Translations under genes and position numbers: made by a program
NCBI RefSeq assembly: GCF_044647545.1
Contig: NZ_CP172818.1
Length of the DNA: 64,000 nucleotides
Source of the DNA: Escherichia coli
Lineage (GTDB): Bacteria > Pseudomonadota > Gammaproteobacteria > Enterobacterales > Enterobacteriaceae
Reading direction: 5' to 3' (one strand)
In this document: positions 6,661 through 6,842 of the stretch, piece after piece
How positions within the stretch are numbered: position 1 is the first letter of the stretch
Layout: the number at the start of each line of letters is the position of its first letter
Notes under the pieces: generated by a model
Told to the model about the DNA's origin: nothing
The model's input: only the letters and a program-made list of their open reading frames with translations
Databases searched by the model: none

Positions 6661-6818
6661 AGCTAATAATAACCTTTGTCAGTAACATGCACAGATACGT
6701 ACAGAAAGACATTCAGGGAACAACAGAACCACAATTCAGAAACTCCCACAGCCGGACCTCCGGCACTGTAACCCTTTACCTGCCGGTATCCACGTTTGTG
6801 GGTACCGGCTTTTTTATT
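6619..6818 (+). ncRNA. isrC: Putative small RNA / flu leader transcript (IsrC-like), ending at an intrinsic-terminator hairpin
   Basis: Position between yeeP and flu and a terminator-like hairpin at 6783-6818; ends about 25 nt before the flu ATG; coordinates approximate. Confidence 0.35.
6783..6818 (+). terminator. Hairpin plus T-run (ccggtatccac gttt gtgggtaccgg cttttttatt) in the flu 5' leader
   Basis: Read from sequence; lies just upstream of the flu RBS aaggaaaag. Confidence 0.55.
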
Positions 6819-6842
6819 CACCCTCAATCTAAGGAAAAGCTG

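What the first reader, a model, noticed from the sequence alone, without database searches (positions are those of the whole stretch)
6783..6842. Terminator-like hairpin inside the flu 5' leader, 25 nt before the start codon
ccggtatccac gttt gtgggtaccgg followed by cttttttatt sits between the phase-variation switch and the flu RBS. Transcripts from the flu promoter must either terminate here, giving a short leader RNA of about 200 nt consistent with IsrC, or read through to express Ag43. That implies a second, post-initiation control layer.
Basis: inference. Interest (0 to 1): 0.4.

Follow-up and report, generated by a model that had tools for sequence, protein, structure and literature searches.

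The report
Known IsrC terminator in flu leader

Summary
Window 6782-6809 is an uninterrupted 12-bp, 8-GC stem with a 4-nt loop, followed by T6 (6810-6815). It lies 27 nt before the flu ATG at 6843. It folds at -23.5 kcal/mol (z -6.4). A site this strong is expected 0.05 times in the whole 64-kb window.

The interpretation also holds, but it is already known. Rfam RF00124 (IS102, which is IsrC) matches 6619-6822 end to end at 252.6 bits, and this hairpin is its 3' terminal stem. The MG1655 reference annotates ncRNA isrC, which maps to window 6621-6815. That span runs from the flu promoter start to the last T of the tract. Papers held here cite Wallecha et al. [quoted passage not shown]

New here:
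- The 49-nt terminator block is almost invariant in front of agn43/cah genes in 76% of complete E. coli genomes, while the leader next to it is unalignable between allele classes.
- No conserved antiterminator helix, ops or boxA was found.
- No compensatory changes were seen in the stem.
- Two published 3'-end data sets list no end at this site.

How read-through happens remains open. Verdict: already known, low interest.

The parts
6587..6615 (+). sigma-70-type flu/agn43 promoter: -35 TTGTCC (6587-6592), 17-nt spacer, -10 TAGAAT (6610-6615)
   Evidence: Promoter scan, 9 of 12 matches. The -10 and the start region are invariant across the agn43 and cah alleles. The annotated isrC 5' end lies 6 nt after the -10.
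6621..6656 (.). Dam/OxyR phase-variation switch: three GATC sites at 6621-6624, 6640-6643 and 6653-6656, at +1 to +36 of the transcript. As RNA the palindrome forms the 5' hairpin of IsrC.
   Evidence: Read directly from the sequence. Invariant in alignment A1. It is the first helix of the Rfam IS102 consensus structure and of the minimum-free-energy fold. The Dam/OxyR role comes from established knowledge (Haagmans and van der Woude 2000; Wallecha 2002, as cited).
6621..6815 (+). IsrC (IS102, b4435): 195-nt terminated leader RNA of flu
   Evidence: Rfam RF00124 hit at 6619-6822, 252.6 bits against a gathering score of 46, E 2e-49, model positions 1-206 of 206. The NC_000913.3 ncRNA isrC 2071317..2071511 maps here, and the window is identical to K-12 from 6554 to 7804.
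6782..6809 (+). Terminator stem-loop: 5' arm 6782-6793, loop 6794-6797, 3' arm 6798-6809
   Evidence: -23.5 kcal/mol, z -6.41. It is the terminal helix of the Rfam model. In 8 alleles, 10 of 12 pairs are invariant, one changes from U.G to U-A, and the variation sits in the loop.
6810..6818 (+). U tract, TTTTTT then ATT. The annotated IsrC 3' end is the last T of the T6 run (6815).
6816..6842 (+). 27-nt spacer to the start codon, with the invariant ATTCACCCTC (6816-6825) and SD AAGGA (6831-6835)
6843..9962 (+). flu/agn43 coding sequence (Ag43 autotransporter, 1039 codons plus stop)
   Evidence: ORF list. Annotation of identical K-12 records.
6687..6842 (+). Open frame from an SD-less ATG, in frame with flu, running through the terminator. 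Not known to be translated.

Best explanation
The hairpin plus U tract is the Rho-independent terminator at the 3' end of IsrC. It acts as a transcription attenuator in the leader of flu/agn43. In phase-ON cells, where the GATC sites are methylated and OxyR is absent, RNA polymerase starts at about 6621. After 195 nt it meets the 12-bp G+C-rich hairpin and U6. It then either releases the RNA at about 6815, giving IsrC, or reads through the 27-nt spacer into flu. The fraction that reads through sets a second layer of control, after initiation, on top of the ON/OFF switch. What is shown here: the anatomy, the identity with annotated IsrC and Rfam IS102, and strong purifying conservation of the terminator block across agn43 and cah alleles. 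What comes from the literature: termination in vitro and antitermination in vivo. The step that allows read-through is unknown. My inference is that it does not rely on a leader-encoded alternative helix. It more likely depends on a factor, on elongation kinetics, or on a ribosome.
For: The hairpin is real and highly non-random. Rfam IS102 gives a full-length match, and its consensus structure ends in this helix. The MG1655 annotation of isrC maps to 6621-6815, ending on the last T of T6, and flu starts 28 nt later. [quoted passage not shown] The 81-nt block is present in 4118 of 5426 complete E. coli genomes, at 7264 places, in front of agn43/cah-family genes. IS102 also scores above its gathering threshold on cah leaders (61-77 bits). 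Between the K-12 and cah alleles, the block from the hairpin to the SD is 92% identical, while the leader just upstream is 32-34% identical. The 49-nt core has 1 difference, against 12-13 of 52 third-codon positions in the adjacent coding sequence (Fisher p 0.001-0.002). K-12 has a single copy of the hairpin, so it is not a dispersed REP element.
Against: The primary paper could not be read, so in-vitro termination and growth-phase dependence rest on citing sentences and on my memory of its abstract. The isrC annotation may itself derive from the predicted promoter and terminator, so its 3' end is not independent mapping. No 3' end at 207151x appears in the held supplements of Adams et al. 2021 or of TERMITe 2025. 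There is no compensatory covariation in the stem, so comparative data support conservation but do not prove the pairing.
Confidence: 0.93

Rival explanations
1. The terminator mainly acts as an insulator. It stops transcription that comes from the upstream prophage genes (the yeeP/GTPase gene), so that read-through cannot override the OFF state of the phase switch. Transcripts from the flu promoter itself are made resistant to it. This could coexist with attenuation.
For: In every allele fetched, a same-strand GTPase-family gene ends about 100 nt upstream of the promoter. No terminator was found between that gene and the flu promoter on the + strand. The promoter/GATC module and the terminator module are the two conserved islands of the region, which would fit a promoter-coupled resistance mechanism.
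Against: IsrC starts at the flu promoter and ends here, so flu-promoter transcripts do terminate. No ops or boxA loading signal was found in the leader. There is no experimental hint of this in the papers read.
Confidence: 0.1
2. The hairpin mainly serves the full-length mRNA, as a stabilising, processing or translation-enhancing structure just upstream of the RBS. Termination would be a minor side effect.
For: The invariant sequence extends beyond the stem and U tract into ATTCACCCTC and the SD. PMC5389530 reports that the stabilised flu mRNA lacks IsrC, meaning the isrC-flu transcript is processed near here.
Against: A 12-bp, 8-GC stem directly followed by U6 is a canonical strong intrinsic terminator. 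A discrete sRNA with this 3' end is annotated and has an Rfam family. The literature calls it attenuation or antitermination.
Confidence: 0.05
3. IsrC is an independent trans-acting sRNA gene, and the hairpin is only its gene end. flu would be transcribed from a promoter of its own.
For: IsrC is annotated as a separate ncRNA gene, and a CRISPR-dCas13a knock-down gave a phenotype (increased lycopene production) (PMC10783499).
Against: Only 27 nt separate the U tract from the ATG, and no promoter-like site lies there. Phase variation of flu is exerted at the promoter that starts IsrC. Over-expressing IsrC changed none of the traits listed in a screen for biofilm, motility and fimbriae (PMC4606813).
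Confidence: 0.03
4. The perfect palindrome is a DNA operator for a dimeric regulator, not an RNA element.
For: The stem sequence is invariant, with no compensatory changes.
Against: The adjoining T6 tract, the annotated RNA end at that tract and the Rfam structural model all point to RNA. The variable positions are the loop (centre) nucleotides and a U.G to U-A change, which is the pattern expected of an RNA hairpin.
Confidence: 0.02

Closest known systems
IsrC / IS102 RNA (Rfam RF00124; E. coli b4435) and the agn43 leader terminator of Wallecha et al. 2014
   Same: It is the same element. The sequence is identical to K-12 from 6554 onward, the covariance-model match is full length, and the position is the same: between the Dam/OxyR switch and the flu start codon.
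   Different: Nothing differs at the locus. This work adds only a survey across alleles (agn43-type against cah-type leaders) and negative searches for an antiterminator.
Classical leader-peptide attenuators (trp, his, leu, thr, pheA leaders)
   Same: An intrinsic terminator sits in the 5' leader a short distance before the first structural gene, and the terminated leader accumulates as a short RNA.
   Different: There is no conserved antiterminator or anti-antiterminator helix: blocking the terminator costs 15-20 kcal/mol, and the alternative partners differ between alleles. There is no SD-preceded leader peptide with regulatory codons.
Promoter-proximal terminators whose terminated product is an sRNA and whose read-through needs an antiterminator, such as the short RNA made by early termination of the Shiga-toxin phage late (P_R') transcript (PMC7547250), and the 5'-UTR-derived sRNAs of Adams et al. 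2021
   Same: A short RNA arises as a by-product of a terminate-or-read-through decision just downstream of a promoter.
   Different: For agn43 no antiterminator protein or loading site (qut, nut, ops, boxA) is known or detectable, and no trans function of IsrC is established.
RAT/LicT-BglG, T-box and riboswitch attenuators
   Same: The leader terminator acts as an expression platform.
   Different: No Rfam riboswitch or leader family other than IS102 matches. No sensor domain is conserved, because the middle of the leader is unalignable between allele classes.

Membership tests
Rfam RF00124 IS102 (IsrC) | Covariance-model score at or above the curated gathering score (46 bits), over the full model | tested here: met
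   252.6 bits, E 2e-49, model positions 1-206 of 206, window 6619-6822 +
Rfam RF00124 IS102 (IsrC) | Same locus as annotated isrC (b4435): same strand and immediately upstream of flu in CP4-44 | tested here: met
   NC_000913.3 isrC 2071317..2071511 and flu 2071539.. map to window 6621-6815 and 6843..
Rfam RF00124 IS102 (IsrC) | Detected in cells as a discrete RNA of about 195-200 nt | not testable with these tools
   Rests on the literature (Chen et al. 2002 from my own knowledge; PMC3175480 lists isrC as a known expressed prophage sRNA)
Intrinsic (Rho-independent) terminator | Stable G+C-rich stem-loop | tested here: met
   12 bp, 8 G-C, loop of 4, -23.5 kcal/mol, z -6.41
Intrinsic (Rho-independent) terminator | U-rich tract directly after the stem | tested here: met
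   T6 begins at the base after the stem, and 8 of the next 9 bases are T
Intrinsic (Rho-independent) terminator | RNA 3' ends in the U tract in vivo | tested here: inconclusive
   The annotated isrC end is the last T, but it may derive from prediction. No end at 207151x appears in the held Term-seq supplements.
Intrinsic (Rho-independent) terminator | Termination by RNA polymerase alone in vitro | not testable with these tools
   Reported by Wallecha et al. 2014 according to my memory of the abstract. The paper is not held.
Attenuator with a competing antiterminator helix (trp type, riboswitch type) | Leader terminator upstream of the regulated coding sequence | tested here: met
   The terminator ends 27 nt before the flu ATG, 195 nt after the start site
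Attenuator with a competing antiterminator helix (trp type, riboswitch type) | A conserved, mutually exclusive alternative pairing of the terminator 5' arm | tested here: not met
   With the 3' arm blocked, the best fold is 15.5-20.4 kcal/mol worse. The partners are GAUAC at +74 in K-12-type leaders and GUGGUUAAUGGY at +44 in cah-type leaders, so they are not conserved.
Attenuator with a competing antiterminator helix (trp type, riboswitch type) | A sensor: leader peptide with regulatory codons, or a ligand, tRNA or protein-binding domain | tested here: not met
   uORFs exist but lack an SD and a conserved peptide. No other Rfam family matches. The middle of the leader is 32-34% identical between allele classes.
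Processive antitermination (RfaH/ops, Nus/boxA) | ops (GGCGGTAGnnTG) or boxA element in the leader | tested here: not met
   The best ops-like match has 3 mismatches, there is no rrn boxA within 3 mismatches, and the best lambda-boxA-like match has 2 mismatches and lies upstream of the start site.

The most novel reading that the evidence does not exclude
The unknown antitermination step might be a ribosome. An unannotated, SD-less upstream reading frame would be translated through the terminator. In K-12 this is the ATG at 6687, in frame with flu; every other allele examined has an ATG-initiated frame that crosses the hairpin. A ribosome closely following RNA polymerase would prevent the hairpin from forming. 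Read-through into flu would then track translational capacity and growth phase, and IsrC would accumulate when coupling fails. A variant of the idea: the block TACCTG-hairpin-U6-ATTCACCCTC, which is invariant without compensatory changes, is the binding site of a sequence-specific antitermination factor not yet identified.
Probability: 0.1. Interest if true: 0.45.

Novelty: already known. Interest (0 to 1): 0.08.

Why it matters
Ag43 is a major autoaggregation and biofilm adhesin, and its Dam/OxyR switch is a textbook epigenetic phase variation system. A leader terminator means that ON cells are not simply ON: output is set a second time after initiation, and a stable by-product RNA (IsrC) is made. 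That is already in the literature and in the databases, so the finding adds no new biology. The question still open is how polymerase gets past so strong a terminator. The allele comparison narrows that question: the answer has to work with only the promoter/GATC module and the 49-nt terminator block in common.

Tried and rejected
1. Reading the primary paper (Wallecha 2014) and the 2002 start-site paper. Neither is held, so I relied on citing sentences.

2. Direct 3'-end evidence. The held Adams 2021 supplements list no + strand end between 2068762 and 2074672 and nothing at 207151x. The TERMITe supplements have none. [quoted passage not shown]

3. Covariation. Eight alleles gave no compensatory change, so there is no comparative proof of the helix.

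4. Breadth outside E. coli. An anchored pattern scan of 100,044 species genomes returned a single hit, a 'Collinsella' MAG contig that is really E. coli DNA.

5. Intrinsic antiterminator. Constrained folding and duplex searches found only weak, allele-specific alternatives. Rejected as a conserved mechanism.

6. ops, boxA and RfaH/Nus signals. Absent.

7. REP element. A 2025 tool labels isrC 'REP', but the block is single-copy in K-12. Rejected.

8. uORF significance. All three frames are open across the block and the start codons lack an SD, so the recurrence of crossing uORFs is not clearly more than chance. Kept only as the novel case.

Full report
**Observation**

The stem is one pair longer than written:
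- 5' arm GCCGGTATCCAC, 6782-6793
- loop GTTT, 6794-6797
- 3' arm GTGGGTACCGGC, 6798-6809
- T6 at 6810-6815, then ATT

That makes 12 uninterrupted pairs, 8 of them G-C. The flu start codon is at 6843 and the Shine-Dalgarno AAGGA is at 6831-6835. The three GATC sites of the phase switch are at 6621-6624, 6640-6643 and 6653-6656.

As RNA, 6776-6822 folds into exactly this hairpin at -23.5 kcal/mol. It makes up 97% of the ensemble, z is -6.41, and none of 200 shuffles folds as well. The loose consensus scan is not enriched locally (3 found against 2.2 expected). A stricter test required at least 12 uninterrupted pairs, at least 6 G-C, and a T-rich tail. It finds two sites in the whole 64-kb window, against 0.05 expected from 40 dinucleotide-preserving shuffles. 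The other site, 20969-21000 on the minus strand, lies just after plaP by colinearity with K-12 and looks like an ordinary gene-end terminator.

**What it is**

Rfam family RF00124 (IS102 RNA, the original name of IsrC) matches window 6619-6822 over its whole model. The score is 252.6 bits against a gathering score of 46, with E 2e-49. The last helix of its consensus structure is this hairpin.

The window is identical to E. coli K-12 from 6554 to 7804. The MG1655 reference annotates ncRNA isrC (b4435) at 2071317..2071511 and flu at 2071539. These map to window 6621-6815 and 6843. IsrC therefore begins 6 nt after the -10 hexamer TAGAAT (6610-6615), at the first GATC, and ends on the last T of the T6 tract.

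One caveat: as far as I recall, IsrC was found by a promoter-plus-terminator prediction followed by Northern blotting. The annotated 3' end may therefore not be independently mapped.

**Literature**

[quoted passage not shown] It adds that the stabilised flu mRNA lacks IsrC, meaning the isrC-flu transcript is processed.
- PMC5811629 lists 'IsrC sRNA (flu gene attenuation)'.
- Over-expressing IsrC changed none of the traits listed in a screen for biofilm, motility and fimbriae (PMC4606813).
- The primary paper is not held. From memory, its abstract reports a Rho-independent terminator 28 bp upstream of the main start codon, functional in vitro, with an as-yet-unknown antitermination mechanism acting in earlier growth phases. 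I mark this as recollection.
- The 28-bp figure agrees with the 27-nt gap measured here.

**Evidence that does not fit neatly**

The held supplementary tables of Adams et al. 2021 (Term-seq of MG1655) list no + strand 3' end between 2068762 and 2074672, and nothing at 207151x. The TERMITe 2025 supplements list none either. I do not treat it as refuting, because flu is phase variable and may be largely OFF or weakly expressed in those cultures. That explanation is my inference, and the point should be settled in locked-ON cells.

**Comparative anatomy (new here, modest)**

- The 81-nt segment around the hairpin occurs in 4118 of 5426 complete E. coli genomes. There are 7264 places (median 2 per genome, up to 7), almost always in front of genes annotated agn43, cah or Ag43/Cah family.
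- K-12 has a single copy, so it is not a dispersed REP, despite a 'REP' label from one tool.
- Aligning a K-12-type, a UPEC-type and cah-type leaders shows two conserved islands. One is the -10/start/GATC module. The other runs from TACCTG through the hairpin, the U tract and ATTCACCCTC to the SD. The 115-140 nt between them is essentially unalignable between the agn43-type and cah-type classes.
- In numbers, K-12 against O157 cah is 32% identical in the middle leader and 92% identical in the terminator-to-SD block.
- The 49-nt core differs at one loop position. By contrast, 12-13 of 52 third-codon positions differ in the adjoining signal-peptide codons (Fisher p 0.001-0.002). The terminator block is therefore under stronger constraint than nearby near-neutral sites.
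- IS102 also scores above threshold on cah leaders (61-77 bits).
- Within the stem, 10 of 12 pairs never vary, one changes from U.G to U-A, and one allele (KE48) has a C-to-A mismatch plus T5. There are no compensatory double changes. The pattern, with variation in the loop, is what a hairpin predicts. It is conservation, not covariation.

**How read-through might work**

I looked for the usual devices.
- Competing helix: with the 3' arm blocked, the best fold is 15.5-20.4 kcal/mol worse. The partner of the 5' arm differs between classes: GAUAC at +74 in K-12-type leaders, and GUGGUUAAUGGY at +44 in cah-type leaders. This is not a conserved antiterminator.
- Processive antitermination: no ops or boxA signal.
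- Sensor domain: no riboswitch or other leader family in Rfam.
- Upstream reading frames: every allele has an ATG-initiated frame that crosses the hairpin. In K-12 this is the ATG at 6687, in frame with flu. These starts lack an SD, the peptides are not conserved, and all three frames are open across the block. The recurrence is therefore weak evidence.

My best inference is that read-through depends on something that needs only the two conserved modules. Candidates are a trans factor, elongation kinetics, or a closely following ribosome.

**Rivals**

- An insulator role against read-through from the upstream same-strand GTPase/yeeP gene is plausible and could coexist with attenuation (0.1).
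- A purely mRNA-stability or translation role (0.05).
- An independent sRNA gene with a separate flu promoter (0.03). Only 27 nt are available and no promoter-like site lies there.
- A DNA operator (0.02).

The last three are all poorly supported.

**Verdict**

Interest is low. The residual value lies in the unsolved antitermination mechanism and in the constraint the allele comparison places on it.

Noticed in passing
window 6687-6842: An ATG at 6687 is in frame with flu and open through the terminator (ORF 6687..9962). All three frames are open across the terminator block. Every other allele examined also has an SD-less ATG uORF crossing the hairpin, ending between the U tract and the SD or fusing to the gene.
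   Followed up: partly
window 4803-6553: The window is not MG1655 here. There are 38 mismatches and 6 indels against NC_000913.3, including frameshifting indels inside the IS2 copy and changes in yeeP. From 6554 to 7804 it is identical. The best match of window 1-20000 among 5426 complete E. coli genomes is K-12 at only 98.1%, with about 1.2 kb extra in K-12. The source is not in that collection, or the sequence is an error-prone or altered version.
   Followed up: partly
L006 (JAIJJM010000521.1), reverse strand 380-680: A 2.3-kb contig of a MAG labelled Collinsella sp. carries a typical E. coli agn43 promoter, GATC switch, IsrC leader and gene start. This is almost certainly E. coli contamination of the bin.
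   Followed up: partly
L009 (E. coli KE48) 356-411: A natural allele with a weakened terminator: C-to-A in the 5' arm (one broken pair) and T5 instead of T6. It is a ready-made test of whether terminator strength tunes Ag43 output.
   Followed up: no
L004 (E. coli SW071614) about 640-700: An IS-type sequence (TGAACCGCCCCGGG...) is inserted 13 nt after the U tract. It removes the SD and agn43 and leaves an orphan promoter-IsrC unit.
   Followed up: no
L002/L003 (cah-type leaders), +44 to +55 of the transcript: GUGGUUAAUGGY just after the third GATC resembles the terminator 3' arm and could pair with 10 of the 12 nt of the 5' arm. It is absent from K-12-type leaders. It is thermodynamically far weaker than the terminator (ddG 17-20 kcal/mol).
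   Followed up: partly
window 6617-6647, minus strand: The GATC-rich palindrome of the phase switch is itself flagged as terminator-like on the minus strand (12 pairs, only 3 G-C). It is the 5' hairpin of IsrC in the Rfam structure. It is probably a by-product of the repeated GATCGATC motif and not a terminator.
   Followed up: partly
window 20969-21000, minus strand: This is the only other very strong terminator-like hairpin in the window (14-bp stem plus T-rich tail). By colinearity with K-12 it sits just downstream of plaP.
   Followed up: partly
L011 (EPEC E2348/69 derivative) 351-381: The 3' arm of the hairpin is truncated and fused directly to internal AIDA-repeat coding sequence. The record is described as an artificial construct derived from E2348/69, so the junction may be a deletion, engineered or natural.
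   Followed up: no
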